The notes under the pieces were generated by a model, which searched no databases, was not told the origin of the DNA, and worked only from the letters and a program-made list of their open reading frames with translations. A stretch of DNA of 64,000 nt from Geosiphon pyriformis uo1 (Eukaryota; Fungi; Glomeromycota), in the NCBI GenBank assembly GCA_016748015.1, contig JAAOMT010000523.1, positions 310,001-374,000 of the forward strand. The letters run 5' to 3'. This document shows positions 16,766-46,741 of this stretch, one piece after another. The translations under genes were made by a program, and so were the position numbers. The first letter of the stretch is position 1. Every line of letters starts with the position of its first letter.

Positions 16766-17746
16766 TGTTACTGGAGGTTTTTGGTCTCTTTTCTTCAATA
16801 TTATTAATGTTAATTTGCTGTGAATTTATGTTTCCAGGAAGTAGTTGGACCTCCAGTAACTGAATTTATTCTCAAATTATCTTCTATAATTTGAACTTGC
16901 TGGACTTATAAGTGAAATGGCCAATTCCGTGCCAGTTGCTTTGTGTAATTACATTGTAGTAAACGTCAACTCTTTCCCAAGAATTGCTTGTCTGAAAGCT
17001 TATTAAAAATGTGTAGTTACTTTGCTGTAAAAGTCAACTCTTCTACAGGAATCTTGTCTGTAGGCTACCTTAATAATTATAATGAGAAAATAAAAGAAAA
17101 ATAAAAAAAATGTAAAAGAAATTGAATTCTGTCAAGGGAAACGTTTTTTATCTAGGCCTGGAATCACTAACAGTTTACTGAAATTGGTAGCTAATCAATT
17201 TTAAAACATTAGTTGGGTTTTGGGGATTTTCCAAGTGCAATAATTAAAGAATTTGGTTTTTTGAATTTATTTGATATTTATTTTTTTTTGTGTGTGTAGG
17301 AATGGTTCTAAGTGATAAATCTAAAGTAAGATACATTTTCTTGAAGAGAGAAGCTCTTTTTTTATACAACTTGTCATAACATTATTCCATGAACTTGAAC
17401 TTTGCTCTTTTCTACAATTTTGCTGAACTAAAGATACATTTTGGTAAACTACAAGTTATTTCTGCGAACTATTAAATATTTTGGTGAACTATCAATTATT
17501 TCGGTGAATTTCTACAAATTTTGGCAAACTTTTGAATGTTACATATTTCGGGGTATTGTATGATTGATTATTGCAATTAGGTTATATTTGTGTTATGTAC
17601 AATTTGAATTATTAATTAAATGATAATTTTGGACATTTTGCTAATGTAATAAGTAATAATTTAAAATAATAATATATGTTAATTAATGATAGAAATTATA
17701 AAGATAATTTCATGCTAAATAATATCTCTAATTTCATCTGGTAACA
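16766..17746 (-). repeat. 3' LTR of Gypsy A (981 bp)
   Basis: TGTTAC...GTAACA; adjacent PPT; direct repeat of 35797-36776. Confidence 0.95.
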
Positions 17747-18434
17747 TAACCTCTTCCTCAAGACTGAGCTCCGTCAAAGTCCAAGTACTGTCTGTAATTT
17801 CCAGATAGTAATTCAAGATTACTGAAGAAATTTGGTCTGAAAATTTTTGAAATTCCAGTTCTGTGAGCTTTCCAATGTATTAAATTTTCAAGGATTGAAA
17901 AATTGGGTTTTGTAGAACGTTTTCACAGGTGTGAAATAGGTCATAAAGTCTAAGAGCAGCTCTGAGCTTGTAGCAACTGTTTGTTGGTCCAGCTGTTGTC
18001 TTGAATTCATTGTGGAGTTGTTTCTGAATAGCTTCTTTTGTGAGATTTGCTGTTGTAAGTTCTAGTTTTCATTCGTAGAGTGTTTTTCCAATGTGGAAAT
18101 ATCTATAGATTGGAGAGTATTCAGTGCTTTTCTCATTGAGACACAGTTGAAGTCTTTGTTGAATTGTAGCATTTGGTGGAATACTAATTGGAGTGAGCAT
18201 TAAGTTTTCTCTTAAAGCAAGCTTTAAAAGTTCTGGCAGGTGAATTCCAAAATAACTTCTTGTATTCTTTTTATAAGGGTGATACTTCTGTGAATTTGGA
18301 GCTAAATTTGTGACTATTTCTGTTTAAGTATAATTAATATGGTTTCTAGTAACAGTAATGGATAATTCAGATATTGTTTTTAAAGCTAACATTAGTTTTT
18401 GAGATAATTGTTGAATGTTTTGAGGAATAGTCAT
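17715..18434 (-). pseudogene. Extra ORF3 of Gypsy A downstream of integrase (240 codons, 3 internal stops), function unknown
   Basis: Hand translation MTIPQNIQQLSQK...PIYRYFHIGKTLYE*KLEL...YKLRAALRLYDLFHTCENVLQNP...IGKLTELEF...EEVMLPDEIRDII*. Homologous to 26707-27528. Confidence 0.7.
17747..17759 (-). other. Polypurine tract of Gypsy A
   Basis: Minus strand reads GAGGAAGAGGTTA directly before the 3' LTR TGTTAC. Confidence 0.85.
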
Positions 18435-18582
18435 TATAAGAGATTTGAAATAAAAGAAAATTATTTTTTGGTGTGTGGGTTTTTATGTTATTTTTGTTTT
18501 TCAGTGTGCTTTGTTTTGTTTTTGTTGTGAAATTGTTTCTAAATTATAAAGAAATAACTATAGTAAAATTGAAATTAAGTGT

Positions 18583-21500
18583 TCAAGTTGGGGGTTGTTC
18601 AATGACAACTATTGGTTCTAAGTTTCGGGTAATATCTTCGGGATTGATTAAAGGAGAATGTATACCAATTTGTGGAATTAATAGTTCAGGATTGTTTTTG
18701 GAATTATAGTGTTTCAAATGATCTCCATGTGCAACTTTTGCTAGGATTTTGTCATCAAGTCTTAGCTTGTATGATCTGTTGCCTAGAACTTTATGGATAA
18801 AGAATGGTTTATCCCATTTATTTTCAAATTTTCCACTCCATTGTTTTTCAGCTTTAGTTCTGTGTAAGAGAACTTTGTTTCCAATTTTAAGTTCATTGAT
18901 AACTGAAGGCAATTTGTTGTCATGCCATTCTTTTTGTTGAGCTTGAAAGTGTTCAATATGAGTGGCTGCTATTTGTCATTTTTTTTCTAACATGCTAAGC
19001 AGAGTGTAGGCTTTTCATTGAAGCATTTCCTGGAAATTGTCTTCACTGATTGGTTGTGCTGGATATGTTTCTATTGTTAAACTAATTGGTAATGTTGCTG
19101 TCTTTCCATAAATTAAATCAAATGGTGTATGTTTTGTGGTATCTTGTTTTAGTGTCCTATATGTTAGTAACACTGATAGAATAAAGATATCCCATTTTTG
19201 CTCAAAATCAGTTAAAACTTTGGCTAATGATTTACACAGTGTCCTATTGAAATGTTCTACAAGCCCATTTGTTTGTGGATAGTAGGGCAAAGATAATGGT
19301 CTCTTGACATTAAATTGTTCACAAATTTTCTGGATTAAATTGTTCACAAAATGTGTTCCTTGATCAGATAAAAGTTCTATTGGGCATCCATGTCTACAAA
19401 TGATATCTTCATAGATGAAGTTTGCTACTGATTTTGTATCTGCTTGTTGAATAGTTCTGGTTTCAGGCTATTTGGTGAGATAGTCTACAGCTACTGCAAT
19501 ATAATGGTTTCCTTGGTTTGTGATAGATAGTGGTCCGACTAAATTGATACCAATTCGGTCAAAAGGCTGTTCAACTTTGATTGGGTTTAAAAGTTCTGTA
19601 GGGCAAGTTCCTTCTTTTCTTTGACAACTATTACAAGACTTAATGTATTCATAGATGTCTTTTCTCATTTGAGGCCAAAAGTAATATTTTAGTGTTTGCT
19701 GGGTGGTGCTGTCCTTTCCTAAGTGTGCTAATAAAAGGTCTGAGTGCATGTTATATAAAATGGTTTTTTTTTCATGTTCTTGTATTAATCTGAGTGGATT
19801 GTCTGGGTTTCTGAAGTTTCAATAATAAATCATGTTGTTGTGTAAGAAGTATTGTTTGGCTTGTTGTTGTAACTGATGTTTTTCATCTGGAGACCAATTT
19901 GTTGAGATTGATAATGTCTTCAAATATTGTTTAAGATTGTTGTAGTTTTCAGGGTTCATTGTTTGTTGTTTTGTTGCTATTAATTCAAATGAGTGTTGGT
20001 TTTGTGTTCTAATCTTGTCTCATTCTTGAGAGACAATCAACATTGGTGTAGAGTTTTTCTGGTTTATGGTGTACAATGTATCAGTAGTTGGCTAAAAATT
20101 CTGTCCATTGGGTTTGTTTGGTGTTTAGCTAAGTATTTTTGTTCTGAAGCCATTTGAGTTCAATATTATCAGTGATAATATCGAATTCTTTTGGCCAGAA
20201 ATAAAGGTTGAAATAATGTAGGGCCCAAATTACAGCTGTTATTTCCAATTTAGTAGCAGGATAATTTTTTTTGGCTGGTTTTAATGTTCTGCTGGCATAA
20301 GCAATTACTCGCTCATTTCTATGGTCATCTAATTGTGACAAAATCACACTGAAAACAGTGTAAGAAGCATCTGTGGCTAATCAAAATTGGTTACTGAAGT
20401 CTGAATAGGTGAGAATTGGAGCTGTTGTCAGCTTTTCCTTGAGAATTTCAAAAGCTTTTTGGTGTTCAGTAGTCTATTTATATTCAACATTTTTAGTGAT
20501 GAGCTGGTTGAGGGGTTTTGCAATTTCTGAGAATCCTTTGGTAAACTTCTGATAGTAGAATGCTAATCCAATAAATTCTCTTAGTTCTGTGGTATTTCGA
20601 GGAGTTTTGAAATTTTTGACAGTGTTTATTTTTCCTGGATCAGGTTTGATTCTATTTTTACTAACAATGTGACCAAGAAAGGCCAAACTCGTTTTTCCAA
20701 AGTAGTATTTTTCAATGTTCAGTTTCAATCCTGCTTTCCGTAATCATTGAAAAACTTTTTGCAGGTGTTTTAAGTGTAATTCAAAAGATGGTGAATAAAC
20801 ATCAGTATCATTGAAATAGACAACTACTGATTTCCAAAGAAGGCCTTTGTAAACAACATCTATGAGTCTTTGGAATGTTGCTAGTGCATTGCATAATCCA
20901 AAAAGCATTATGTTGAACTCATAATTTCCTTCTTGAATGGTGAATGCTGTTTTGGGGCGATCTTCGGGATCCATGGCAACTTGCCAGTATCTATTCTCTA
21001 AATCTAATGTCAAAAAGTATTTGGACTTTCCAAGAGCATCTAGCATGTCATCAATTTGAGGAAGAGGGTAGGCATCTCCAATAGTGACACTGTTGAGTTG
21101 TCGATAATCAACACAAAATCGTATCTTTCTATTTTTTTTTTAATTAAGACCACAGGTGAGGCCCATGGACTCATTGATGGTTGAATAAGCCCATTGTTGA
21201 GCATCCGTTGTATTTCTTCATGGATAAATTGGTGACTTTCTGGAGTAACTCAGTAGGCTTGTTGTTGCCTAGGTTTGGCATCTCCTGTGTAGATTTAATG
21301 TTGAACCAAATTGGTTCTTCCTAAGTTATTGTTGTTTTTGGCAAAGATATTGGCAAATTCTGCAATTAGCTCTTTGAACTGGTTTTGTTGTTGTGGTTCA
21401 AGTTGTCCCATGTTGATTTGAGATAGTTTTTCCATAACAACATGGTAGTTTTTGGAGCTGGAGTTTGGGTTGATTTTTGGTAGTGAATGTCCAATAATTT

Positions 21501-23700
21501 CAGAGAAATTGGGGACTGTTTGGAGTAATTCTTGTTGAAAGATATTACTGTGAATAACTCCAATTTCTAAGTTATTTAATAAAACTATGGGGTAATTATT
21601 GGGGTTGTAAAAAGTAACTCGGATTTTCTTTGTTCCTTTTGGAATGTAGATATTTGGGATCAAGATATTATGTTCCAAGCAGATTCATTCATTGGACTTA
21701 AAAATTTGTTGGGTGATTGTTGGCTTTGGGCAGGTATAGATTTTGGAGTGTTCTTTAAAAGATGAAATAGTAATTGGTTGGAGAAGGCATAAAATCTGGT
21801 GAGACTCATTCTGTTTATTGAGAGCTATGTTTACTGGAACTGTGAATCGTCTAGTTGAACCAAAACCTTGTGTTCCTCTTTTGCTTTTTCCCAATTGTTC
21901 TCTTTGATTGACTAACTGTAAACCCGAAATGTTGATTAAGGGTAAATAGATAGCTTAAGCAATTTTTTCGGCATGTTCAATTTTGAAAGGTTTATTGGTT
22001 TCATTTTGGAGTATTACTGTTATATTACCAGTATATTCAGCATCGATTATTCCTCCTCTGACATTGATTCTTTTGCTTGCCAGAGAGGACCAGGAGGCAA
22101 TTTGAACTATTGCTCCTGGCGGAATTTCGAGAGCAATTTTGAGGTTGATTTTTGTGAGAGATTTGGGTTTGAGAACAAGAGTATTCTTGTCTGGATTATT
22201 TAGGTCATATCCAGCATCAATTTCATGTGCTTTTTCAGGTTTTATTCCTTGTCCATTGTTGTTGAAGTATTTGAGTTGTAAGGCAGGCTGATTTTTGATG
22301 AAATAGATGAGTGTTGTTTCAATTTCTTCTGTTGCTTCAGGTTCTCCAAATTCAATTTTGTTTTCATTGTTTTCACTAAGCAGAAGAATGCTAAGAGCAT
22401 AGCATTCAGGGCACCATTGTTCATTGCAAGGCATTATGCATTCTTCACACAATTTAATGTTCATTTGCTCTAGCCATTGGGCTTGAGCTTCTTTGGTCGG
22501 GTAAGTGTGACTGGCAATTTGGTAATATATTTTTACTTCATCTTTGTAATTGTATCCAGTGATTTCAAAGGTGCATGCAATATATTCTGATTCTTTTATT
22601 TGACGAACATTTTCTTGAGTGGCTCCATTGATTAAAGTCATTGCTAGATTAAAAATCATTTTGGCATTGTGAGGGTAATGATACAGTTTGTTGAGGGCGC
22701 TATTGTAAGCAGTATTGAAAGAGGTTTCTCTTGTTACTTTTTCTGAAATTAAAAGGGCATATTGACATGTTTGATAACAGACTTCTCCTTTGAATGCAAC
22801 ATCAATCCAGTTACATTCATCAGGTAATTGTTTTTCACAAGTAAACAGGGCATTCTATTCCATTTTTCACTTCTTTTGACTAGGTGTCCTCATCGTTGTC
22901 AGTGGCAGGATTTGCAATAGTAACAGATATGGTTTCTGTATTCTTCCTCGGGTGAAATACAAGCTCTCATTAATGAGAGTTTCTTGTGGCAATCTTTGTA
23001 TTTGAGTGGAATGTAAGGGCATTGTTTTTGTGGTTCTGGTTTTGAATAGGGGACATTCCATCTGGGTATTACTGGTTTTTTTGTTTCAAAAGAATTGTTT
23101 GTTGAAAAATACTGTTGTTCAGTTTCATCAGCCCAATTGGAGGTTGATCCAAGTGCCATAAATGTTTCAATGATGGGTTTTTCTTTTTCTGGTTCGAATT
23201 CAAAAGCCAGGGCTTTTTCGGAATGTTTGTTGAATGTACCACAAGTGGCAGGTACCTGGGCATGTTGTCCTTAGTAAGAGATTGTTAACTCTTATGTCTC
23301 CCAATTCAGATTAGCATTGGCTTTTTAAAGCCAATTGTTTCTGACAAGAGCTTGGTATTAAGAAGCATCCATGACCAGAACTTTAATTAGAATGGTGATT
23401 CCATCAATTGTGAATGGGAAGTTGTCAATTTCTTCTACTGGAGTCTTTTTCATGCCATCAGCAGTGACAATGATTGTCTGAGCTGGTCGGTCAACATTCT
23501 TTTTTAGCTACTGCATTAATTGATATGTGATAATGCTTCTGGCGAATTCACTATCTAAGATTAAGCAAATTGGCTTTCCTTCTGCTTCAGCTTCTGTGTA
23601 CATTGCAGTGATGGCTTTTTGCTTGTTAGCTGCTGCATTGCTAAGCAAAAATGGTGATTTGTTTGCTTCAAATTCGAAAAGGAATATATCTAAAAGGTTG
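18583..23700 (-). pseudogene. Gypsy A pol: protease, Cys-rich domain, dUTPase, RT, RNase H, integrase
   Basis: ORF fragments 23508-23960 (PR), 21955-22659 (dUTPase), 20744-21046 and 20474-20728 (RT), 20129-20347 (RH), 19468-19749 (IN HHCC), 19015-19347 (YYPQTNGLVE), 18583-18912 (GPF-like motif). Confidence 0.92.
21850..22270 (-). pseudogene. dUTPase domain in Gypsy A pol
   Basis: Trimeric dUTPase motifs: AGYDL (I), ASWSSLA (II, RSS), GGIIDAEYTG (III), KIA*AI (IV), RGTQGFGST (V). Confidence 0.93.
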
Positions 23701-23959
23701 GCATTTTCAGCAATTCTGGCTGATGGGATTATGGTAGAAGTATAGAAAAGATTTTGTTGTTGTGCTGCAGCTCTATCTTCTGAGAGTGCAGTATGGCGAA
23801 AATCCTGTTCTTCTGGCATCATAAGATAACTAGGTTGAGTATGATAGTGGTTGGATCTTGGTTGAGCTGAATTTCGGGGAACCAATTGGTTGTTCGAATT
23901 AATTCTATTGTTGTTTACTTGGTATTGGTTTTGTGGTGTAAACTGATTTTGCGGAATCA

Positions 23960-25630
23960 ATCTTCAAGCAGGCACTTGATAATGTTGTGTGGGTGGTTGT
24001 TGGTATTGCTGTTAAATTGGCTGTGGAGTGGGCTGATAATAGTTACTTTGGTATTGGGGTCTTGGTAGATAGTAAGCTGGTGGTGGTGGTTGATAATAAG
24101 ATTGCTGTGGTGGAGGGTAATGTTGATTACTCCTATTTTGTTGGTCTTATTGTAGCTTTCTGCAATCTCTTTTCCAGTGGCCAGGAATTCCACAGTAATA
24201 GCAATTCTGAGGCTGGTTATTAGAAAGTAGTACAAAGTTATTTTGATTTTGTCTTTGGGGTGGTTAATATCTTTGGGATTGTTGTTGTTGTTGTTGGTTG
24301 GTGAAGTAGTTTTCAACTTTCTTGGTTAATTGGTCAATCTTTTCTTCAGCTGCTGAGCTGGTTTCTCCAATAGCCAGATTAACAAGTTTGGTATGGTTGG
24401 CTTTTTCCATGGCCATTTCATAGTTTTTTGCCTGTTGAATAGTAGTGGCTAAATCTTCTGGTGCATGTGGGCAAACTTTCTTGATAAGTTTGTCTTTTAG
24501 TCCAGCAATGAATTGATCCAAGATTTGTGCATTGGAGTAGTATTCATTGGTTTCCAATTGCCGAATTTTTCTAAGCAGTTTGTTGAATTTCCCAAGATAG
24601 GTCATAACTGATTTACTTGGTTCTTGCTTGATATTTCGGAACCAATTTTGAAGAGTAATGGAAGTGTTATTGTCAGTGAACTGTTCTAGAAAAGCAGTTT
24701 TAAATGCTTCCCAGTATTCTGGTAGAGCTTCCAAGTTTTCAAACCATTCATCAGCCATTCCTTGTAGGAAGTATGGAATTGCTTTTAACATTCTGGCAGT
24801 GTTCCAACCATTTGTATCTCCTGTTTTTGAGACTTTGTCAAGCCATTTTTGAGGACTGGTTTTGCTGTCTTCTCCTGTGAACTCAGGAATTTTTGCAATA
24901 TATGTGGAGGCCATTTCTTCTTTGTTTTCTGAGTCTTCTGTTTCTTGTTCTGATTTGGTCTCTTCACTTCGATTTTCTGTTAAGTAGTCAATAAGGTTTG
25001 TGCTGGTTAATATTGGTTTCTGTTGTTGAATAGAGCTTTTGGATGACTGGAAATCTTCTATTCTTGAAAACCGAATAAGTAGTGAACTTGGTGTTTGTGG
25101 TTGAGCAAGTGAAGCTGGAAATGGTGTGATTGAGAGTGGTAATTTAAAGCTGGTTCCTTGTTCTGGAGTTTGTAAATGTTTGGCAGTGGTTTTAGGTGTA
25201 TTGGGAGTAGTTCTGAGTTTTTGTTTTTTTTTTCCTTTTCCTTCTTCTGTTTCCGATTTAAAACTAAGAGAAAATTTCTGTTCTACTGGGTAATTCTCTT
25301 CACAATACTGAATGATATTGAAGTTGAGTTCTTGGAAATATGTTTCAAGTGTTTGACTGTTAAAATCTTGAGTGTTTAGATGAGAGTGATGTACTAAGCT
25401 TTCATATAAGTTGTGTCTAACTTCTGAAATGTTGTAGTCTCCAAAAAGATAATTGTTGATGTGATTTTCAATGTACTGATAAAGTGTTTTTTTGAATGTT
25501 TCAATTCCATTTGGGATGTTAAATCTCTGCTTGCAGTGAATGTAGATTGACTGATAATACTCTAGAGTTCTTGAATCTGTTTGAGTTGCCACTTTTGAAT
25601 TTATTGTTGCTGTGTTATTTCTGTAAGAGA
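23960..25630 (-). pseudogene. Gypsy A gag
   Basis: 456-aa ORF with retrotransposon capsid-like region (IPEFTGED, LQGMADEWF, FIAGL). The CCHC knuckle at about 24160-24205 is in the same frame after one stop. Confidence 0.9.
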
Positions 25631-25634
25631 GCAC

Positions 25635-26706
25635 TGTTACAGGTAAACTTGGTGGGTATGGGAAATGGTAATGTTTGGTGCTCTCAATTATTGATGATGT
25701 ATCTTCCGCGTAATTCTGTTGGCTTAGTCTTGATTATTAATCTCTGAAGGTCTATTCCTGGATGTAAATTTACCTGTCGAGTTCTTTGGTTATAAGGCAC
25801 AAAGTTTGTCTTTTGTCGATTGCAATGTTTTTTGTAAATGTGAGCTCTCTTTTCCGAGCTAACAAGCACAGTTATTAGGATCTGGCATTGTCTTTTTACC
25901 CTTCTGGTAAGTTAACAAGATAAAGTTAATATCCAAAACTTAGAAAGAGCTTCCCTCTTTTACCAGGCTATCACGAAGTCTATTCCTAGACAGTTGATTT
26001 TACTATGTTGCTGCTCCACAAAAATAAAACAGAAAAAAAAAAGGAAAGAAAAAAAAAGAGAAAAAAGATAAATTAGTATTGTCAATTGCCATAATTAAGA
26101 GCGATTAGTCCAAATCGTTAATAGGTTCGAGACGGTTATGCTAAGAGCATCTGTTCTAGAACGGAGGCACGAAACAAGAGTTAATTCACGTAAATTCTAC
26201 AAAGTTCAAGAACATAAATTCGTGATTCTGATTTCTTTAATAATTGGTTTATTTCAGGAGATGAAATAGGGAAGATAATAAAAGATGAAGGGGTATGGAT
26301 ATTTTAGTTCTTGTCTAAAGGTTTGTATCTATCTGTTTGTCTTTTCTCACTTCTATAACTACTTGCTTTTATACATTCTTTTGGTTTTACAGAATTGCTT
26401 TCAATTGTCTTGCTATTGCTAGCTATTGTTTTGTTGTTTCTGTTATTGCTTCGTTTTTCTATGTTATTACTAGTTATTCTATGTTATAACACATTATCTG
26501 ATGTTATTACATGTTATTTTGTGTTATCCTGTATTATAACACATTATTCTATGTTATTGCCACGCTATTCTGTATTATCCTGCATTATAACATGTTATCC
26601 TATGTTATAACGCATTATCCAATGTTATTGCACATTATTCTGTGTTATGTCATGTTTTGGTCACGTTTCTTTATAACTTTGGATTGGTTTTTCTACTCGG
26701 ATAACA
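25635..26706 (-). repeat. 3' LTR of Gypsy B (1072 bp)
   Basis: TGTTAC...ATAACA (mutated GTAACA); direct repeat of 34707-35788; PPT at 26707-26722. Confidence 0.95.
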
Positions 26707-27528
26707 TTATCTCTCTTTTTTTAAAATTAAGCTCCTGCAAAACCATATGTATCTGTTATCATGGCTTTATTTGTGTAATGTTTTGATTGTTGCCTCGAGT
26801 ATTGTCTTTTGTAGGTCTTTGAACTGTTGATTGGTTATTCATTCTATGTTATTAACCATTATGGTTTTCATAAATCCATTCAGTAGTATGTTTGGGCAAT
26901 GTTGGAAGGTGGCATATAGTCGGTATGCTGCTTTGTAATGTAGGGTCAGATTGTTTTTCCCTACAAATTTTTCTACTTGTTGTATTGTTTCTTTGTTGAA
27001 TGTTTTCTGGCTGAGGTCTTCATATGGTGTTTTCAAGTTAAGCTGTTCTCCAATTTTGTAGAACCAATAAGTTGGAAAAAGTCTTTCTTTTCATTCCTGG
27101 GCATTGTCAGATGTCCACTCCTCTGTTTCAGGGAGTTCGGTCCCACAAGCTAAAGCTTTTTTTATTTTTTCGAGCTTAGGGACCAAGTATCTTCTTTTGT
27201 AACCTTTTTCTTGTTCTTTGCCTTCTTCTTTTCCATCTTCTGCCCAAAGGCAATTTTTCTTCCAACATTGTCTTTTGGGTGGTGGATAGAGGAATGTTTA
27301 GTTCTAATTGAACTTTCGTCCTCCTCTCTCCTGCTCTTATCTTTGTACCATATCTCTTTTTTTATTAATTGTTATTTCTATTTGAGATGCTTATTTTTGA
27401 ATTGTTTCAAATAATTGTCTAGATAATTTTAAATTGATCTGAAAGATCCATGTTGAAATTTCTATTGTTTCTTGCTGCTTTTTGGATGTTATATATATTT
27501 GAATTCCCCAATTTAATTTGCTGTCCAT
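26707..27528 (-). pseudogene. Extra ORF3 of Gypsy B downstream of integrase
   Basis: ATG at 27528 just after the integrase stop (27534-27532). Contains PTYWFYKIGEQL...LHYKAAYRLYATFQHCPNILLN...IE*LTNQQF, which aligns with ORF3 of family A. Has stops and a probable frameshift. Confidence 0.65.
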
Positions 27529-27531
27529 TGT

Positions 27532-30500
27532 CTACATTTTGATGATGATAATTGGTTCCAGATCTTGTGGTATATCTTCTGGTCTGATTAATGAAATTTG
27601 TGTTTCTAGTTGAGGTACTGATAATGATAATTCCTGTTTTACATGATAAATTTTTAACCGATTTCCATGCACTACTTTTTTTAAAATTCTGTCTTCCAAT
27701 CATAATTTGTAAGCTCCATTTCCTAATGCTTCGTGTATGTGGAATAGACTGTTCCACTTTGGGTCGAACTTTCCACTCCACTGTTTTTCAGCTTTTGTAT
27801 GATGTAACAGTACTTGGTCTCCAATCTTGAATTCCATTGATTGTTTTGATAGGTGTTTATCATGTCTTTTTTTTTGTCATTTTTGAGCATGACTAATATT
27901 GTCAGCTGTTGTTCTTCGATTGTTTTCCAATGTTTCTATTAGCTGGTATGTTTTTTGGTGTAAAATAGCTTCAAAATTCTCTTCATTGATTGTTTCTGTT
28001 GGATATGATGGTATCACTTGTTCAATTAGTAATGTAGCTTTTCTTCCATAAACTAGTTCAAATGGTGTGAACTGAGTCATATTTTGTTTCAATGTTCAGT
28101 ATGCAAAGAGTACAAAAGGTATAAATAAGTTTCATTCTTGTCTGTTTTCATGACTTATTTTTGCTAATGCTTCGCACAGTGTTTTGTTAAATTGTTCTAT
28201 CAGTCTATTTGTTTGTGGGTGGTATGGTGACGATAAGAGTCTCTTTATTCCAAACCGTTGGCTTAGTTCAGTCAGCGTATTATTAACGAAATGTGTTTTC
28301 TGATCAGATAATAATTTTTTCGGACATCCATGTCAGCAAATTAGGTCTTAATGCACAAATTCGGCTACTGTTTTGGTGTCAGCCACTTGGATTGCTCTGG
28401 CTTCTGGCCATTTTGTAAGATAGTCTACAGCTACAGTGATATAGCAATTTCTTTGGGATATAATTGAAAGAGGTCCAACCAAATTGATCCTAATTCTATC
28501 AAATAGATTTCCAACTGGAATGGGTCGAAGTGGTTCTGTTGATCTTGCTCTTCCTTTTCACTAGCATGTATCACAATTGAGCATGTATTCGAAAATGTTT
28601 TTGTATATTGTTGGCCAATAGTATAAGTTTAATGTTCTTTTGAGGGTAGCATCTTTGTTAAAGTGTTCTGCAGTCAGATCTGAGTGCACGCTATATAGTA
28701 TAGTTTCTCTTTTACTGTTCTTGATTAGTCATTGTAAGTTGGGGTGGTTTCAACATTCTCGTCAATATAGTTGGTTGTCTTGAATAAAATAATTTCAGGC
28801 TTGTTTTTGTATAGTACTCTGTTTCTGTTGAGATAATATCTCCTTGAAATGTAGTGTCGATAGGTACTAATGTAGTCGTTGATAAGTAAGTGTGTTCATG
28901 GGTCTGAAATTAGGTTTGTGGTATTCTTAACAAACTGTTGGCATTGGTGTTCTTGGATTCTTCCTTGTAATAAACTTTGAGTGAAAATTGTTGCAGATAA
29001 GTACTCCATCTTGCATATTTTCCTTCTAGTTGTGAATTGTTGAGTAACCAAATAAGTCTTTTGTGGTCAGTATATAGATTAAATGGTTGACTGAGATAAT
29101 GTTTCCAAGTCTGTATGGCCCAATAAATGATGAGACATTCTAGATCTGTTGTGCTGTAATTCTTTTCTGCTGGACTAGTGCTGTGACTAGCATAGACAAC
29201 TGGGTGTTCTCTATTGTCTGGTCCTATCTGTAATAAGACTGCTTCTAGAGCATTTTTTGAGGTGTCCGTAGCAACAATAATCTGTTTAGTGAAATCTGGG
29301 TAAATCAGAATTGGGGATGTGATCAATCGTTGCTTAAGATAGTCAAATGCTTTCTGTTGATCTTCCTTTCACAAGTATGGTACGTATTTGGACAACAATT
29401 GATGGAGTGGTTTTGTGATGTTCAAGAAACCTTTGACAAATTGATGATAATATCCTGCCAATTCTAGAAATCCTCGTAATTTTTTGAGGTTGATTGGGGC
29501 TAAAAAATCCTTGACTTTTTGTACTTTATCTGGATCGGGTTTAACTCTGTTCTTGCTGATTACATGTTCTAAGAATTTTAATTTGGTTTTTCCAAAGAAG
29601 CACTTCTCGGGATTGAGTTTCAATTCGGCACTACAAAGACATTTGAAGACTTGTTGCAGGTAGAGCAGATGGTTTTCGAATGTTTCAGAGAACACATTTG
29701 TGTCATCTAGGTAGACTACTACTGATTTCCAAAGGATTCCTTTATATACTACATCCATCAAGCATTAAAACATGGCAGGAGCATTACAAAGTCCAAAAGG
29801 CATTACATTAAACTCAAAGTTTCTGTCTCGAGTGGTAAACGCTGTTTTTCTTTTGTCTTTGGGGTCCATTTCAACTTGCCAGTAACCACTTACTAAATCT
29901 AATAACAAGAACTATTTCTTTTTCCCTAGATTGTCCAGAATTTCTTGGATGAAGGGAGTGGGATAACTATCTCCTTGCATGACACTATTTAGTTTTCAAT
30001 AATCTACACAGAATTGCACTTTTCCGTTTTTCTTGGTGACCAAGACTACTGAAAAAGACCAAGAGCTTAACAATTCTTTGATTAGGCCGTTATCAAGCAT
30101 CCATTGCACTTTTTGCTTAATTAGGTTATTGCCAGATGGAAGTATGCAGTAAGTTCGTTGCTTAATTGGTCGAGCGTCTCCTGTATCAATCTAATGCTTC
30201 ACGATGTCAGTGCATCCGAACTCATTTTTGCTGGCAAAGACATCGGCATACTGATTTAGAAGAACTTTAAGTTGCATTTGTTGCAAAGTACTTAAATTTC
30301 CTAAATTCAATTTATTGATCTCTTCTGGTGTGAACAAGTAACTTTCTTTTGGCAAATTCCATACTTGTGAGGTAATGTCACAGAATAAGAATAATTGTGT
30401 GAAATCTGAAATGAACTGGGGTTTTTCAGGATTCTGAATATCTGTGGATATGAAACTGATGAGGGTCTCTTTGGGAATTTCAATGACATCTTCTGTTGGG

Positions 30501-32520
30501 TTGTGGATGGAGATTTTGAAGTGTTTATGGACTTTGGCTGGTAGGTATAGATTAGCAACATTGGCTAGGAAACAGATTTTGGGACTGGCTTCGAATAACA
30601 AAGCTTGATCTTGGATCTTTCAATTCACCTTGAGGATGTATTGTCAGTATGGGGGAATAGAAATGATGGTATTGGTATTGATAAATTCTACCTGGTCACT
30701 GTTTTTCTCCATAAAATTAACTGGTACGTTTTCTCTTCCACTTGATCCAAACCCATTGATTTCTCAGGCAGTGAGACCTAACTCTTCTTGGGTTGTTATT
30801 GGGGTTAATTGTGGTATTTTGACTAGGAGTAGGAAGATAGCTTGGGCAATCTTTTCTTGTGATTCTATTTTGTAGGGTCTGTTCGAATTGTTCTGTAGCA
30901 TCATGATAATGTTTTCCATGTAACCAGCATCAATGATTCCCCCTTTTACGTCGATTTTTTTCTTGGCTAGACTAGATTGAAAGGCAACTTGTACCATTGT
31001 ACTAACAGGAATTTCTAATACTATCTTAAGATCTATTTTTACGAAGAAATGTGGGGCTATAATAATGGGTGATTGTCCGGAGTATCGTAAGTCAAAACTG
31101 GTATTAGTGTCATGCACTCTTTTGGAGCAGATTCCTTCCTTATTGTCACTGTACTATTTTAGTTCTAGTTCTTTAAATAGGTTGGAATACACAAGATACT
31201 GTTCTGTTTCGGTATCCTCAGTTGAATCTTGAAACGACATGTTCTTGGTGATCAATATTTCTTCTTCAGGCTCAGATAGTTTGGTGATTGAAAACAGTAT
31301 TCTTGGAGGCAGATTGAACATAAGATCACATTTGTTACAGTACTGGAAGTGACAGGAGATCAAATAGGAATTACACAGTTTGGTATTCAAATCAGCTAAC
31401 CTTTGCTCCTGTTCTTCACAAGTTGGGGCCAATTCCTGATATTAGTTCTGAAATCATCCTCGAGATAGTCGGGTTTATTATATTCAGGTGTCCAAGGGTT
31501 GTTCTTGATTTCTTGTATTTTTTTGGGTGTGGTGCCTTCAGCCTTGGTGCTTGCCATTCTCCAGATTTCATGGTCATTGTGTAGATAACTGTCCAGCCTG
31601 TTAAGTGCTCGTTTCCAAGCGTCTTCAATAGGGGTTCTCTTTCATACTCAATTGTTGATTAATATGATGTATTGACAAGCCTCGTCACATGTTCTTCTTC
31701 TGCCAGGCACATTATTCCAGAGTCCTTCATCTGACAGGATTTCACCACATGCAAGGCATGGCATGTTGTCCCACTTGTCTTGTTGTTTTGGTCATCCAAA
31801 TCTTTCCAGTAAACAAGGTCTGCAATAATATTTGGTGGCAGTGGGCCATTTTTTGTTGTTCCCAATACATACACTCATAGTGAATAGTTTTTTTCCACAA
31901 TCGACACATATTAGTCTTGGGAGTTGGTAAAATAAGTTTTTTTGGTCTGAGGTTACATATCTTAGTGATGATGATTGGGGTTCTTCTTCGGCTCTGCCTT
32001 TTTCTTTTTTTTCCCAGGTTGGTGGTGGGGGTAGTTTAGTTCGATAATCATCCGTTCATGAAACCTGATAGGTCTCGATGGTTGGTGGCATTGATGTGTC
32101 TTCAAATTCAATAAGGGGTTCTTTGGTACATTGGGTCTTAAAGTGTTTGCACATAGCTGGGACTCAGGCATGCTGTCCGTTAAATGTGAGTTGAAGTTCT
32201 TGGGTGTTCTAGTCAAGAGTAGCATTGGCTTTTGACAACCAATCATTTCCTACTAGAGCTTAATATTGAGTAGCTTCCATGACAAGTACTTTGGTAGGAA
32301 TTTGGATTCTATTAATCTCAAAGGGGAAGTTGTCAATTTCTCCTATCGGGGTTTTTGTGTTTCCATTCGCTGTAATGATTCGGGTGGTAGCAGCATGGTC
32401 TATTCGGTGACCTAGTTGGTCCATGAGCTGCTTCATGATTATGCTACCAGCTGATCTGCTGTCCAGGATTAATTTAATGTCTATTTCTCTGACTCTGACA
32501 TCGGTATATAGGGCCATTAT
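27532..32520 (-). pseudogene. Gypsy B pol: protease, Cys-rich domain, dUTPase, RT, RNase H, integrase
   Basis: ORF fragments 32260-32517 (PR), 30764-31117 (dUTPase), 29369-29761 (RT YLDD), 28910-29326 (RH, ATDTS), 27877-28092 (IN, TPFELVYGR). Confidence 0.92.
30735..31150 (-). pseudogene. dUTPase domain in Gypsy B pol
   Basis: TSFDLRY, AFQSSLA, GGIIDAGYM, KIAQAI, then *EINGFGSSG (motifs I-V). Confidence 0.92.
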
Positions 32521-32529
32521 TGGTTTATC

Positions 32530-34687
32530 CTAATTGATGGCTGCTCCACTAAAAAGGCTATGGGTGTTCAAATTATCAATGTCAAAAGAAAATATGGTGG
32601 CTAAAGTGGTGTCTTCGGTAATAGTGGTTGGTGGGATATTGCTTTTTGTTTGCTTGGAAGGTTGGGAGATTTGTTCTATATTTCTCCCTTCCACAGGTGT
32701 AGATTTATCAAAACCCTGGTCTTTCATAAGACCAAGATAGGAAGCTTGATTCAGGTATCCAGTTGGTATTGATTGAGATGGTCCACTGTTGGTTTGCACC
32801 TGATTGTTATTGAAATTCCTCCATCTCTGATTATAGTCTATAGCTCGAGGTCTGGATGGGCTGTAAAGGGAAGTTTAATAGTGAGGGATTACTTGTGTCA
32901 TTGGTGGTGATTGATAATAATTCTGGGACAGTGGTTGAATGTATGGGACTTGTTGTACATATAGGGGCAGTTAATTCTGAGGTATGGAATATTGGGGTAC
33001 TATGTTTTGCTGATATCTGAGTTGCTGGTATGAGTTTCCTTGATTTTGGTCCATGATCTTCTTTCTGCAGTCATAGGCAATGTGTCCAGATTTCTGGCAG
33101 TAATAACAGTTACAGAGATCAGATCTCCAAGGTTGTTGCTGTTGCTGACAGTTCTGTTGTTGTGGGTATCTGCTGTTGTTGTTATTTTCTCTCCGTTGGG
33201 GTAGTTGGTAAGTTCCTATAGTTCCGGCTAAGAATTTCTCAATTTTCTGAGTTAGTTTTTTACTCAATTGGGTTATCTTTGCATCGATGTCAGAGGTTCC
33301 ATTAATGGCTAAATTAACGGCTTAGATATGGTTTGCTTCTTGTTTTGCAGACTCAAAATTGCGAGCGAGAGTGATAGTGTCTTGTAAACTGGTCGGATGG
33401 TGGGGTCTTACAGATTTTAGAATACTACTCCACAATCCTTTAATGAATTAATTAAGAACTTGCGCTGTGGTGTAGTAGTCCCTTTCAATAGCTAATATTT
33501 GACGCAGAATTTGATTGAATTGTCCGAAATAAGTAGTTACTGCTTTGTGATCTTTTTGTTTAATTATGCTGAATTGATTCTGCAATCGGATTAATGTATT
33601 GGGGTCACAGAAGTATTGCAAAAATGTGAGTTTAAATTCGGTAAAAGAGGTAGACTTCTCTGTCAGGCTTTGGTACCATGAATTGGTAGTTCCAGTCAGA
33701 AAGAACAGCAGTGCCTAAATTGTGTGGTCATTGTTTCAATCATTAGTGGTAATTGCTTTTTCGGTGTCTACGATTCAAGAATATACATTATCTTCTTCAT
33801 TAAAGAATTTTTCCAATTTAGTGATATCCCAGTAAGTCATGATTTGGTTAATGGGTGAGATATTACTGGTTATGTTTAAAGGGATTGGTGTCCATATATT
33901 TGAGTGTTCTCTGGGTGCTAATGCTGGTTGCTTTCCTTTGTTGCTTGAACTAATAGGTTGTAAGATAGCTGTTTCTTCCATCAAGGGAGATGCTAATTCT
34001 ACTAAGTTTTGTGCTGGTGGCTGTTCCCAAGTTGATGGGTTTCTTTTTGTTTGACCAGCTGCTGGGGTAAGATTTCCAAACAGCAATCCGTATTCTCCTA
34101 GTGATTTGGTCCAACTGTGTTGATTCCAAGGGTGTGGATTTCCAGGAGTTCATGGTGTTTCCAACTGGGTTTTTAGGAATGGGTTGAATACAATTCTACT
34201 TTGGGGTGTCTGATGGTATAATGGAGTTGTTGGGGAGAGAACTCTTGGTTTCTTGTTGACTGTAGACTTGGCTTGGGCAGTTACAGGATTGTTGGATTCA
34301 TTTTCATATTCCTCAGGGTCAGATTCCACTGGTTGTTGTACTTGAGAGAATCATTGTGCCACATAATATTTAATGTCTGTATCAATTATGTGCAGAGTTT
34401 CAGTGATTGCTCGGGTAGTCATGGCTGTTGAGTACCCTAGTAAGCTTTGATGGATTTGTTCTCCAAGTTTTTCTGTATCAGTTGCGTGGCCTAACAAGCA
34501 GTTAATTTTTGTGTTAATATAGTTACAAAAATCACTTTCTGCGTAAGTGGTTTTTGCTGGTATTCCTAGGTCTTTTCGAAAGTATTGAAATAGTGCTTTT
34601 CCGTACAAGAAGTGGTCCTTTCCTATTGTTCCAATCGTCACCACTTTTATGTATTTTTGGGGGTGCTCTGTCTCTGTGGATTTATAA
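32530..34687 (-). pseudogene. Gypsy B gag (fragmented)
   Basis: ORF pieces 34351-34644, 33775-34086, 32971-33267 (CCHC knuckle), 32530-32799; homologous to gag of A. Confidence 0.85.
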
Positions 34688-34704
34688 CCTCACAGGGAGC
34701 ACCA
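34688..34704 (-). other. Primer-binding site of Gypsy B (TGGTGCTCCCTGTGAGG)
   Basis: Starts 2 nt after the 5' LTR with TGG. Its complement CCTCACAGGGAGCACCA resembles a tRNA 3' end (elongator Met or Ile-UAU type; not resolved). Confidence 0.85.
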
Positions 34705-34706
34705 AA

Positions 34707-35788
34707 TGTTACAGGTAAACTTGGTGGGTATGAGAAATAGTAACATTTGGTGCTCTTAATTATTGATGATGCATTTTTCGTGTAATTCTGTTGGCTTAGT
34801 CTTGATTATCAGTCTCTGAAGGTCTATTCCTAGATGTGAATTTACCTGTCGAGTTCTTTGGTTATAAGGCACAGAGTTTGTCTTTTGTTAATTGCAACAT
34901 TTTTTGTAAATGTGAGCTCTCTTCTCTGAGCTAACAAGTGCAGTCATTAGGGTCTGGCATTGTTTTTTCGCCTTTCTGGTAAGCTAACAAGATAAAATTA
35001 ATATCTAAAACTTAGGGAGAGCTTTCCTTTTTTACCAGGCTATCATGAAGTCTATTCCCAGACAGTTGATTTTACTATGTTGCTGCTCCACAAAAATAAA
35101 ACAGAAAAAGAAAGAAAAAGAAAAAGGAAAGAAAAGAAAAGAGAGAAAAAATAAATTAGTATCATCAATCACCATGATCAAGAGCAATTGGTCTAAATCA
35201 TTAATAGATTCGAGGCAGTTATGCTAAGAGCATCTGTCCTAGAATGGAGATATGAGACAAAAGTTAATTCATGTAAATTCCATGAAGTTCGAGAACATAA
35301 ATTTGTGATTCTGATTTCTTTAATAATTGGTTTATTTCAGGAGATGAAATAGAGAAGATAATAAAGGATGAAAGGGTATGGATATTTTAGTTCTTGTCTA
35401 GAGATTTATATCTATCTGTCTGTTTTTTCTTACTTCTACAACTACTTGCTTTTATACATTCTTTTGGTTTTACAAGATTGCTTTCAATTGTCTTGCTATC
35501 ACTAGCTATTGCTTTGTTGTTTCTGTTATTGCTTCATTTTTCTATGTTATCACTAGTTATCCTATGTTATAACACGTTATCTGACGTTATTACATGTTAT
35601 TCTGTGTTATTCTGCATTATAATATGTTATTCTACATTATTGTGTGCTATTTTGTGTTATCTTGCATTATAACATGTTATCTTACATTATAATGCATTAT
35701 CCAACATTATTGCACGTTATTCTGTGTTATGTCACATTTTGGTCACGTTTTTTCATAACTTTGGATCAGTTTTTCTACTTAGGTAACA
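34707..35788 (-). repeat. 5' LTR of Gypsy B (1082 bp)
   Basis: TGTTAC...GTAACA; PBS adjacent. Confidence 0.95.
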
Positions 35789-35796
35789 GCACCAAA

Positions 35797-36776
35797 TATT
35801 ATTGGAGGTTTTTGGTCTCTTTTTTTCAATGTTGTTAATGTTGATTTGCTGTGAATTCATGTTTCCAGAAAGTAGTTGGACCTCCAGTAACTGAATTTAT
35901 CCTCAAATTATAGAAGATAATTTGAACTTGCTGGGCTTATAAGTGGAATGGCCAATTCCATGCCAGTTGTTTTGTGTAGTTACGTTGTAGTAAATGTCAA
36001 CTCTTTCCCAAGAATTGTTCATCTAGAAACTCACTAAAAATGTGTAGTTACTTTGCTGTGAAAGTCAACTCTTTTACAGAAATCTTGTCTGTAGGCTACC
36101 TTAATGATTATAATGAGAAAATAAAAGAAATGTAAAAGAAATATAAAAAAAATTGAATTCTGTCAAGGGAAATGTTTTTTATCCAGGCCTGGAGTTACTA
36201 ACAGTTTACTGAAATTGGTAGCTAATCAATTTTAAAACATTAGTTGGGTTTTGGGGATTTTCCAAGTGCAATAATTAAAAAATTTGGTTTTTCAAATTAT
36301 TTGATATTTATTTTTTTTTGTGTGTGTAGGAATAGTTCTAAGTAATAAATCTAAAGTAAGATACATTTTTTTGAAGAAAGAAGCTCTTCTTTTATACAAC
36401 TTGTCATAACACTATTCCATGAATTTGAACTTTGCTCTTTTCTACAATTTCGCTGAACTAAAGATACATTTCGGCAAACTACAAGTTATTTCTGCAAACT
36501 ATTAAATATTTTGGTGAACTATCAATTATTTCGGCAAATTTCTACAAATTTTGGTGAACTTTTGAATGTTACATATTTCGGGATATTGCATGATTGATTA
36601 TTGCAATTAGGTTACATTTGTGTTATGTACAATTTGGGTTATTAATTAAATGATAATTTTGAACATTTTGCTAATATAATAAGTGATAATTTGAAACAAT
36701 AATATATGCTAATTAATGATAGAAATTATAAAAATAATTTCATGCTAAATAATATCTCTAATTTTGTCTGGTAACA
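35797..36776 (-). repeat. 5' LTR of Gypsy A (980 bp)
   Basis: TATTAT (mutated TGTTAC)...GTAACA; followed on the minus strand by TT-TGGTGC, the first part of the PBS. Confidence 0.95.
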
Positions 36777-42700: not shown

Positions 42701-42789
42701 TAGTTTTTTTAATTGTTTTTCATAAATTTAATTATTAAAATATACATAATTTAAGTTGTTTTCTATAATTAATAAATATTTGGTAAAAA

Positions 42790-43140
42790 CAGATCTATTT
42801 GTTATAAATATTTTTACAAATAGTTTGTTAAAAAATTTAAATTTGTATAAAATAGCCAATAATACTTTGGTATTTTTTGAAAATTCAAATATAAATACAA
42901 ATATTTATGTTTTTAGTCTAATTTTATTAATTTTAATTGAATTATAAGTTATTTTTTTGATATTTAAATGTATATTAGCATTTAATATGATAAAAATTTA
43001 TTTTAATAAATAAGCTATTTTTAATATTTATGTTTTTGAGTTTATTTTAAAGTTGTTTAATCTTTGTAATAATTATTAAATAAAAAAAAACAAATTATTA
43101 ATTTTATTTGTAAAAAAATATTTTAGTTATTTAATCTAAG
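42790..43140 (+). mobile_element. Very decayed LINE RNase H relic
   Basis: NIFTNSLLKNLNLYKIANNTLVFFENSNINTNIYVFSLILLILIEL* aligns with SVYTDGSLSGLGTAAMRAGAAAFFENINLGLGVGVSGLVSFTLTELQ, largely through G>A/C>T changes. Confidence 0.6.
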
Positions 43141-43464
43141 ATTAAAATTCATTAATATTACAACATAAAAGACATTCAAAAACCAAATATTATAAGTCTG
43201 CTATTGAAAAAAATGAAAATCACACCTAAAATACACTTGTAATAGATATGATCTTTTAGAACACAATAATACAAAATGTTAAAATTAGATAAGATTTAAT
43301 CAATTATTTGTTTATTTTTTACTTTACAATAACTAAACATTGTATTTATTTCTAATAAAATTAATAATTCAACTTTAATTTATCCAATAAAAACAAATAA
43401 TACATATTATTATTACATATTATTTTTTTAAAATTTAATAAAATTTCTGATCTTAATTAAAGTT

Positions 43465-46451: not shown

Positions 46452-46539
46452 TAATTAAAGTTATTTTCAAAGTTGTTTTATGTAACAGATTATTATAATT
46501 AAATTTATCTAAATTATTAATTATTTTATTAAATTATTA

Positions 46540-46741
46540 AATATTTTGAAAGTTATATAGTTTAAAGTATTATATAATTTAATTATTGCAGTTTGTTATT
46601 TTTGTGTATTATACAAATTAGATTAATTAAATAATAATATTTAATAATTTGTTAAAATAATAATATATATTAATTAATAATAAGAATTATAAAAATAATT
46701 TCATGCTAATTAATAATTCAAATAATATTCCAATAGTAATA
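46540..46741 (-). mobile_element. Old degenerate fragment of a family A LTR
   Basis: Colinear with 17530-17746 (...aattataaaaataatttcatgctaa...), ending GTAATA in place of GTAACA. Confidence 0.6.

What the first reader, a model, noticed from the sequence alone, without database searches (positions are those of the whole stretch)
16766..36776. Two divergent Gypsy families share an expanded layout: PR, Cys-rich domain, dUTPase, possible pseudo-dUTPase, RT/RH/IN, non-env ORF3
Seen: elements A and B have LTRs that do not visibly align apart from the termini, yet both carry the same extra modules in the same order, plus TGTTAC/GTAACA ends, 4-bp TSDs and a TGGTGCTC PBS. Known: canonical Ty3/Gypsy pol is PR-RT-RH-IN. 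Inference: retention across divergent families points to a distinct clade of complex, retrovirus-like fungal LTR elements with functional accessory genes. This is the best candidate for an undescribed system in the window.
Basis: partly seen in the sequence, partly recalled or inferred. Interest (0 to 1): 0.85.

Follow-up and report, generated by a model that had tools for sequence, protein, structure and literature searches.

The report
Fungal retrotransposons: twin dUTPase, separate integrase
Two decayed jumping genes, one nested inside the other in a fungal genome, carry a dUTP-destroying enzyme domain followed by a predicted inactive copy of the same fold, and they encode integrase as its own gene; the separate integrase is shared with most close relatives, while the extra enzyme pair was seen only in this fungus's elements.

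Summary
Mostly confirmed, but the reading changes. Element B (10.2 kb) sits inside the primer-binding site of element A. Both are decayed Ty3/Gypsy elements; the closest named proteins are from Geosiphon pyriformis. Both carry gag, protease, a Cys-rich module, a five-motif dUTPase, a second domain predicted to have the dUTPase fold (VIA Z 10.6) without its motifs, RT-RNase H, integrase and a non-env ORF3.

Of 44 nearest RT relatives, 39 stop right after RNase H, and the 120 best integrase hits are standalone proteins. The scan noted this split before on other genomes.

The accessory block does not define that wider lineage. Only 1 of 44 has a dUTPase and none matches the Cys-rich or pseudo-dUTPase modules. 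dUTPase between protease and RT is already published for fungal, rotifer and planarian elements. The pseudo-dUTPase looks like a spacer common in animal-type Gypsy pol (weak profile match).

Verdict: a new variant of Metaviridae, of moderate interest. Its best parts are the split integrase and the dead dUTPase fold.

The parts
35797..36776 (-). Element A 5' LTR (980 bp; starts TGTTAC, 3' end decayed to ATAATA)
35789..35796 (-). First half of A's PBS (TTTG plus GTGC); GTGC is the left copy of B's target-site duplication
   Evidence: contigs of other copies show A's LTR running straight into the PBS, i.e. the empty site (tables 5c and 7)
34707..35788 (-). Element B 5' LTR (1082 bp; 10-bp-period tandem repeats near its start)
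34688..34755 (-). B's PBS (TTTGGTGCTCCCTGTGAGG) and a predicted 16-bp hairpin pairing the LTR end plus PBS with a sequence inside U5
   Evidence: -28.2 kcal/mol, z -5.9, 0 of 200 shuffles fold as well
28910..34700 (-). B ORF1, decayed: gag (about 33705-33430), zinc knuckle (33111-33061), protease (32502-32185), Cys-rich module (about 31940-31320), dUTPase, pseudo-dUTPase, RT, RNase H; stop TAA at 28912-28910. Start codon not determined.
30740..31174 (-). B dUTPase domain (motifs partly decayed in this copy)
   Evidence: Pfam PF00692 E 1.9e-11
30420..30736 (-). B pseudo-dUTPase domain (homologous to A's)
27531..28899 (-). B integrase as a separate ORF; ATG 10 nt after the RNase H stop, in another frame; H2C2, rve and SH3 domains, no chromodomain
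26730..27451 (-). B ORF3 (frameshifted in this copy; 3' end approximate)
25635..26706 (-). Element B 3' LTR, followed by the right TSD copy GTGC (25634-25631)
20009..25630 (-). A ORF1, decayed: gag (24782-24495), zinc knuckle (24206-24156), protease (23585-23277), Cys-rich module (about 23000-22390), dUTPase, pseudo-dUTPase, RT, RNase H; stop TAG at 20011-20009. Start codon not determined.
21853..22287 (-). A dUTPase domain; the five motifs are the majority state across family copies
   Evidence: Pfam E 2.5e-19
21547..21849 (-). A pseudo-dUTPase: predicted dUTPase beta-fold of about 100 aa with no recognisable catalytic motif
   Evidence: fold depends on alignment A3
18583..19959 (-). A integrase as a separate ORF; ATG 49 nt after the RNase H stop, in another frame
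   Evidence: no variant of 8% or more at the stop or the ATG among 495 laid contigs
17715..18434 (-). A ORF3, 239 codons, running across the polypurine tract into the 3' LTR; non-env, no Pfam family
16766..17746 (-). Element A 3' LTR
9374..10382 (-). Solo LTR of an A-related family (81% to A's LTRs) with exact 4-bp TSD CTGT, inside a LINE

Best explanation
These are two dead, nested Ty3/Gypsy LTR retrotransposons, likely from Geosiphon or a close relative, whose first gene encodes Gag-protease-Cys module-dUTPase-predicted pseudo-dUTPase-RT-RNase H, followed by integrase and ORF3 as separate genes, with integrase likely made by ribosomes that stop after RNase H and restart a few bases downstream. 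Shown: nesting, module order, stop after RNase H and a new ATG in another frame, the same split in most near relatives, and five dUTPase motifs in the family. Predicted: the second domain has the dUTPase fold. Inferred: (1) protease releases the dUTPase, which lowers dUTP in the particle so that reverse transcription incorporates less uracil, as proposed for lentiviral dUTPases in non-dividing cells; (2) the pseudo-dUTPase is an old, non-catalytic spacer domain of Gypsy pol kept for a structural role, and the active dUTPase was added in front of it; (3) free integrase must be packaged through RNA or protein contacts; (4) ORF3 is a soluble accessory protein, most likely nucleic-acid binding, not an envelope.
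For: Nesting and TSD. Domains. Split pol: 39 of the 44 non-plant relatives on A/B's side of the tree end within 10 residues of RNase H; 3 more continue without integrase similarity. The 120 best integrase hits are all standalone proteins of 392-453 aa; 118 of 120 start with Met and 104 of 120 begin within 10 residues of B's Met. A's stop and ATG show no variant of 8% or more among 495 contigs. Control: in other Gypsy loci, integrase lies in the RT frame in 56 of the 65 loci with an integrase hit, of 83 examined. dUTPase motifs AGYD, RSS, GIIDAGYTG, EKIAQ and RGxQGFGST. Pseudo-dUTPase: pLDDT block means 90-98 over residues 21-100; Foldseek best hit EBV dUTPase E 1.7e-4; VIA ranks 1-22 are dUTPases, dCTP deaminases or herpesviral dUTPase-derived proteins (the last label is recalled), top Z 10.6, rmsd 2.9, 88 residues aligned, and rows from rank 24 down score Z<=5.1. 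ORF3: 44 hits, including two full-length proteins that align end to end (P0497 from metagenomes, P0499 source not looked up); A's ORF3 matches that profile at probability 99%, 213 columns.
Against: The integrase search admitted only proteins of 251-800 aa, so it could not show fused forms. Two Rhizophagus clarus gene models (P0190, P0194) join RNase H to integrase, and one animal-type protein (P0218) also ends at RNase H. Some short metagenome proteins may be cut by contig ends. Only 1 of 83 fetched loci (L041) was close to the clade and it had 109 nt downstream, so no relative's junction was read as DNA. The junctions here are spacers of 10 and 49 nt, not stop/start overlaps; restart is untested. 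The fold model drew 33 of its 48 rows from other Gypsy elements whose link to the domain is weak: hhalign probability 16%, E 0.0016; their HMM does not hit the window at E<2; the alignment was not inspected. A Geosiphon-only alignment gave no usable model (pLDDT 39). No reference GyDB or REXdb sequences were in the tree, and the wider group has support of only 87/97.
Confidence: 0.6

Rival explanations
1. Same anatomy, but integrase and ORF3 are translated from spliced or internally initiated subgenomic RNAs rather than by ribosome restart.
For: The spacers are variable (RNase H to integrase 10 and 49 nt; integrase to ORF3 79 and 148 nt; read). PMC5408684 (passages) states that ORF3s are typically expressed from spliced messages. 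Foamy viruses make Pol from a spliced RNA (recalled).
Against: The integrase ATG sits very close to the stop in B and at a fixed place across 104 of 120 relatives, which suits coupling; no splice evidence was obtained.
Confidence: 0.25
2. One reading: the full accessory block (Cys-rich, dUTPase, pseudo-dUTPase, ORF3) defines a distinct, widespread clade of complex retrovirus-like fungal elements.
For: A and B share the block and are deeply diverged sisters. A third Geosiphon-type family has the Cys-rich module (P0487, E 4e-21). ORF3 homologues exist outside Geosiphon annotations (P0497). The nearest outside RT, P0159, has a dUTPase (82/77 support).
Against: 43 of 44 near relatives lack the dUTPase; none matches the Cys-rich module (best E 0.36) or the pseudo-dUTPase (best E 0.17). 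P0159 has protease-dUTPase-short Cys patch-RT, a different order. All 120 listed hits to the accessory block are Geosiphon proteins (120 of 297 hits were shown). No env signal.
Confidence: 0.15
3. The pseudo-dUTPase is a recent tandem duplicate of the element's own dUTPase that pairs with it in a single-chain, herpesvirus-like enzyme.
For: The two domains are directly adjacent; the best structural match is the second half of EBV dUTPase (chain 129-218); Pfam Herpes_ORF11 gives a weak hit, but on the first domain (E 1.5e-4).
Against: No profile similarity between the two domains (hhalign probability 0.06%), whereas the match to the animal-type spacer is better (16%). All five motifs lie in the first domain, unlike the split motifs of herpesviral dUTPases (recalled). 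The top Z scores are tied within 1 with ordinary trimeric dUTPases.
Confidence: 0.12
4. The separate integrase ORF is a product of decay in these dead copies.
For: Both copies carry many stops and some frameshifts; differences from other copies are mostly transitions (730 of 832 places).
Against: The break is at the same point in both families, is shared by A's copies, and recurs in 39 of 44 relatives with otherwise open frames.
Confidence: 0.03

Closest known systems
Metaviridae (Ty3/Gypsy), canonical Metavirus layout (ICTV profile PMC7879559, whole text read)
   Same: LTRs, PBS, polypurine tract, capsid and nucleocapsid domains, order PR-RT-RH-IN, fungal host
   Different: Integrase is outside pol as its own ORF; gag and PR-RT-RH appear to be one frame; about 600 aa of extra modules between PR and RT; the third gene is not env
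dUTPase-bearing fungal elements: Postia PosPlaTy3-5, Phanerochaete elements, Tuber Tmt1 (PMC2864245, passages)
   Same: dUTPase between PR and RT (PosPlaTy3-5)
   Different: Those are discussed as chromodomain-containing elements; no chromodomain was found here. The passages read mention no second dUTPase fold, Cys-rich module or split integrase
Bdelloid rotifer Juno, Vesta and TelKA (PMC5408684, abstract and passages); planarian Burro (PMC6431247, passages)
   Same: dUTPase between PR and RT, an extra zinc knuckle beside it in Juno, and non-env ORF3s
   Different: Animal hosts; their ORF3s are GDSL, DEDDy or env types; integrase is drawn as part of pol
Glomeromycota Gypsy elements annotated in Rhizophagus as 'gag-pol fusion protein', 'retroviral-like aspartic protease 1' and 'DDE-type integrase'
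   Same: Nearest RT and integrase relatives (45-54% and 39-45% identity); pol ends at RNase H; standalone integrase; 20 of 44 have 5-10 Cys between PR and RT
   Different: Their PR-RT spacers are 13-319 aa and, apart from P0159, lack a dUTPase; none matches the Geosiphon modules
Vertebrate metavirus related to the PNMA genes (PMC11011659, passages)
   Same: A dUTPase domain was assigned by HMM and structure searches in an animal Gypsy pol; this may be the same spacer domain (not tested)
   Different: The authors did not study it further; no tandem active plus inactive pair is described in the passages read

Membership tests
Metaviridae (Ty3/Gypsy) | Two LTRs flanking an internal region, with PBS and polypurine tract | tested here: met
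   purine run GAGGAAGAGG before A's 3' LTR and AAAAAAAGAGAGA before B's
Metaviridae (Ty3/Gypsy) | Ty3-type capsid and nucleocapsid domains | tested here: met
   Retrotrans_gag and Ty3_capsid above cut-off in both; zf-CCHC above cut-off in A, below in B
Metaviridae (Ty3/Gypsy) | Domain order PR-RT-RH-IN with Gypsy-type RT | tested here: met
Metaviridae (Ty3/Gypsy) | Integrase encoded within the pol gene (ICTV description of the canonical genome) | tested here: not met
   Stop after RNase H and new ATG in another frame in both elements; hence filed as a variant, not a canonical member
Metaviridae (Ty3/Gypsy) | Priming by a host tRNA at the PBS | not testable with these tools
   No host genome held. 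The match of B's PBS to tRNA-Ile(UAU) is recalled, not from a call
Chromoviruses | Chromodomain at the integrase C-terminus | tested here: not met
   No chromo family in Pfam scans of either integrase at E<=1; none among the 120 integrase hits
Errantivirus / env-bearing Gypsy | ORF3 is an envelope glycoprotein with surface and transmembrane parts | tested here: inconclusive
   No env family in Pfam for either ORF3 or 26 homologues; no PDB sequence match; about 235 aa with no long hydrophobic run by eye; the hydropathy script did not run and no fold was predicted
Named non-chromovirus Gypsy clades (GyDB, REXdb) | RT clusters with reference members | not tested
   No reference sequences were in the tree; A and B fall with Glomeromycota-type proteins, apart from animal-type hits (87/97)
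Trimeric dUTPase (first domain) | Five conserved motifs in order | tested here: met
   Majority state in Geosiphon copies and alignment A6; single window copies carry substitutions
Trimeric dUTPase (first domain) | dUTP hydrolysis and trimer formation | not testable with these tools
   needs an assay
dUTPase-like fold (second domain) | Distorted beta-barrel of dUTPases | tested here: met
   predicted model that depends on alignment A3
dUTPase-like fold (second domain) | Catalytic motifs 1-5 | tested here: not met
   No Pfam dUTPase hit on this part; none of the motifs in the majority of copies; hhalign to the first domain 0.06%

The most novel reading that the evidence does not exclude
Glomeromycota harbour an undescribed Metaviridae lineage with three genes (Gag-PR-RT-RH, integrase, ORF3) in which integrase is never part of a polyprotein. 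Its Geosiphon branch keeps an active dUTPase beside a dead one, and the dead one is the same domain that sits unrecognised between protease and RT in many animal Gypsy elements. A dUTPase fold in pol would then be an ancient feature of a large part of the Gypsy tree, not a set of scattered recent captures.
Probability: 0.4. Interest if true: 0.72.

Novelty: new variant of a known kind. Interest (0 to 1): 0.52.

Why it matters
In the textbook layout, LTR elements deliver integrase as part of Pol, which is how it gets into the particle. An abundant lineage that makes integrase separately needs another way to translate and package it, and that can be tested in Rhizophagus, where open copies are annotated. 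It also explains the many standalone 'DDE-type integrase' gene models in these fungi and warns that LTR finders requiring one pol frame will misjudge them. If the common protease-RT spacer of animal-type Gypsy is a dead dUTPase, the view that retrotransposon dUTPases are rare independent captures needs revision. LTR elements cover 41.2% of the G. pyriformis genome (PMC11952901, passage), so these families likely shaped it.

Tried and rejected
No host genome is held, so no genome-wide copy survey or dN/dS was possible. AlphaFold on the whole accessory block with 51 Geosiphon copies failed (mean pLDDT 39; even the true dUTPase did not fold), so the Cys-rich module has no fold assignment; it has no Pfam family either. 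The ESM Atlas gave no answer for any query. No RNA holder was listed, which says nothing about expression. The script machine was lost, so alignment A3 was not inspected and ORF3 hydropathy was not computed. L080 was dropped from A3 because its stretch held a stop. The 24 animal-type spacers were picked from 64 proteins by a sequence pattern, so they are not an unbiased sample. The pseudo-dUTPase HMM reached those spacers only at E 0.67-15. Control profile pairs with the protease domain scored probability <=0.4%. One ORF3 hit (P0494) is an unrelated repeat protein. Matching contig lengths between some RT and integrase hits (for example P0161/P0337, P0180/P0406) hint at shared contigs but were not verified. 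Literature: eight searches listed no paper describing a split-integrase Glomeromycota clade or a pseudo-dUTPase spacer; the library lacks most subscription journals and Repbase Reports, and no supplements were read. No complex prediction was run.
Full report
Layout. Self-comparison shows two LTR pairs on the minus strand: 36776-35797 with 17746-16766 (92.4% identical) and 35788-34707 with 26706-25635 (88.2%). B (10,154 bp) lies inside A, eight bases after A's 5' LTR, within A's primer-binding site, flanked by GTGC on both sides. Contigs of one public DNA run show the empty site, with an A-type LTR running directly into the PBS (21 loose ends at 25634). A's own flanks match at 2 of 4 bases; a solo A-type LTR at 9374-10382 has an exact CTGT duplication. 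A and B LTRs give no blastn hit to each other among the rows kept. Both copies are dead. Of 832 places where other copies differ from the stretch laid, 730 are transitions, which fits cytosine deamination (inferred).

Host. All 120 listed hits to A's accessory block (297 found) are Geosiphon pyriformis hypothetical proteins, at 55-85% identity. None was marked as the window's own, so the host is likely G. pyriformis or a close relative. PMC11952901 (passages) gives 41.2% LTR content for that genome.

Modules. Pfam finds gag, zinc knuckle, protease (below cut-off), dUTPase, RT, RNase H and integrase in the same order in both. Between A and B, RT-RNase H is 51% identical, integrase 49%, the Cys-rich part 33% over 88 residues and ORF3 25-29%, the dUTPase 44% and the second domain with its linker 29%. 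Protein conservation against unalignable LTRs fits past purifying selection; dN/dS was not computed.

dUTPase. The five motifs (names recalled) are the majority state across the Geosiphon copies and align with a metagenome relative. The window copies carry substitutions, for example at the motif 2 arginine. Position between PR and RT is published for Postia PosPlaTy3-5 (PMC2864245, passages), rotifer Juno, Vesta and TelKA (PMC5408684, abstract and passages) and planarian Burro (PMC6431247, passages). PMC2774666 (passages) mentions it for fungal chromoviruses.

Second domain. It has no Pfam hit and no profile similarity to the first domain (0.06%). Its HMM weakly touched the PR-RT spacer of animal-type Gypsy proteins at a consistent position (E 0.67-15). 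Profile comparison gave 78 columns, E 0.0016, probability 16%, against 0.4% or less for protease controls. The reverse HMM search did not hit the window. With a 48-row alignment (2 window, 13 Geosiphon, 33 other Gypsy rows) AlphaFold modelled residues 21-100 at pLDDT 90-98. Foldseek and VIA (top Z 10.6, rmsd 2.9, 88 aligned; ranks 1-22 dUTPase-type, Z<=5.1 from rank 24) match it to dUTPases. So 'pseudo-dUTPase' is supported, with the caveat that the model leans on the borrowed rows, which I could not inspect. It also implies that the common spacer has this fold; 9 of 83 fetched loci carry the spacer at E<1e-3. PMC11011659 (passages) labels a dUTPase in one vertebrate metavirus by structure search, possibly this domain.

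Cys-rich module. It holds several CxxC pairs around a helical part, is conserved across A's copies and occurs in a further Geosiphon-type family (P0487, E 4e-21). No fold was obtained. Twenty of 44 relatives have their own 5-10 Cys in the same spacer but do not align with it. Zinc binding is inferred from the pattern only.

Split integrase. In A, RNase H stops at 20011-20009 and integrase starts at 19959 (49 nt later, other frame). In B the stop is 28912-28910 and the ATG 28899 (10 nt). Among 495 contigs laid on A's junction, no variant of 8% or more touches the stop or the ATG; two small insertions occur in the spacer. A search with A's RT-RNase H among proteins of 659-2000 aa listed 120 of 3503 hits. 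A tree of 72 rows (70 of those hits, chosen by me, plus A and B) puts A and B together (100/94, long-branch warning), next to P0159 (82/77), on a side with 44 non-plant proteins and two long-branched plant rows (87/97). Named members of those clusters are Rhizophagus, Funneliformis and Cetraspora. Of the 44, 39 end within 10 residues of RNase H, 3 continue without integrase similarity, and 2 R. clarus gene models join to integrase. One animal-type protein also ends at RNase H. The 120 best hits to B's integrase (743 found; 251-800 aa admitted) are standalone; 118 start with Met and 104 start within 10 residues of B's Met. In unrelated Gypsy loci integrase shares the RT frame in 56 of 65 with a hit (83 examined). 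I reached this reading before consulting earlier notes; two notes of this scan report the same split on other genomes, with start/stop overlaps that are not present here.

How far the block extends. Among the 44, only P0159 has a dUTPase, in the order protease-dUTPase-short Cys patch-RT. None matches the Cys-rich or pseudo-dUTPase modules. The full block is therefore, on present sampling, a Geosiphon trait of a wider split-integrase lineage.

ORF3. A's ORF3 (18434-17715, 239 codons) runs over the polypurine tract into the LTR. A search with B's ORF3 gave 44 hits; 9 of the 10 looked up are Geosiphon proteins and one (P0497) is from metagenomes. P0497 and P0499 are full length (230, 234 aa) and end in nearly the same residues as A's ORF3, which suggests they too overlap an LTR start (inferred). 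A's ORF3 matches the family profile at 99% over 213 columns. There is no Pfam family consistent across members, no PDB match and no env signal. A basic patch (for example RKPK) and a conserved C-terminal part suggest nucleic-acid binding; this is a guess.

Priming. B's PBS reads TGGTGCTCCCTGTGAGG, which I recall as complementary to tRNA-Ile(UAU); untested. The LTR end and PBS are predicted to pair with a sequence inside U5 in a 16-bp stem (z -5.9). A shows a shorter possible pairing by eye (AAGAGA-CCAAA against TTTGG-TGC-TCTCTT).

Mechanism and verdict. [quoted passage not shown] Translation, packaging and enzyme activity are all inferred. Against the ICTV description (PMC7879559, whole text) this is a Metaviridae variant that fails 'integrase within pol'. 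Eight literature searches listed no description of the split lineage or the pseudo-dUTPase spacer; passages of PMC3248453, PMC13524379 and bioRxiv 10.64898/2026.05.21.726589 did not bear on it. Supplements were not read and Repbase was not searchable.

Noticed in passing
window 34675-34775 (-): B's U5 holds an inverted copy of the LTR end plus PBS, giving a predicted 16-bp hairpin (z -5.9). It could gate tRNA priming or allow Tf1-like self-priming (analogy recalled). A has a shorter version with different paired bases.
   Followed up: partly
window 35789-35796 and 25631-25634: B inserted exactly into A's PBS, a sequence nearly identical to B's own PBS; this may be chance or may reflect a target preference.
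   Followed up: partly
window 5800-14200, 37850-46720, 51950-59900: Several related decayed non-LTR (LINE-type) elements with ORF1, endonuclease-like, RT and RNase H-like parts (RVT_1 E 2.5e-11 at 54019-55323). One holds the solo LTR.
   Followed up: partly
window 53685-54476: A 386-bp exact direct repeat flanks a 20-N gap (54071-54090); probably an assembly artefact.
   Followed up: no
window 50-2525 (+) and 2923-5029 (-): Host genes: a purine-synthesis gene (AIRS_C, E 7e-25) and a Mid1 calcium-channel component (E 3.5e-56), tail to tail.
   Followed up: partly
proteins P0180, P0185, P0227: Clade members whose ORF1 continues 217-392 residues past RNase H with no integrase similarity; P0180's tail is Cys/His-rich.
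   Followed up: no
window 26441-26638 and 35540-35710: Degenerate 10-bp-period tandem array near the start of B's LTRs; A's LTRs have a 20/40-bp array at 17438-17530 and 36468-36560.
   Followed up: no
window 14000-16000, 47000-52000, 59000-61000: Stretches of 8-19% GC between the elements, possibly old repeats depleted of cytosine.
   Followed up: no
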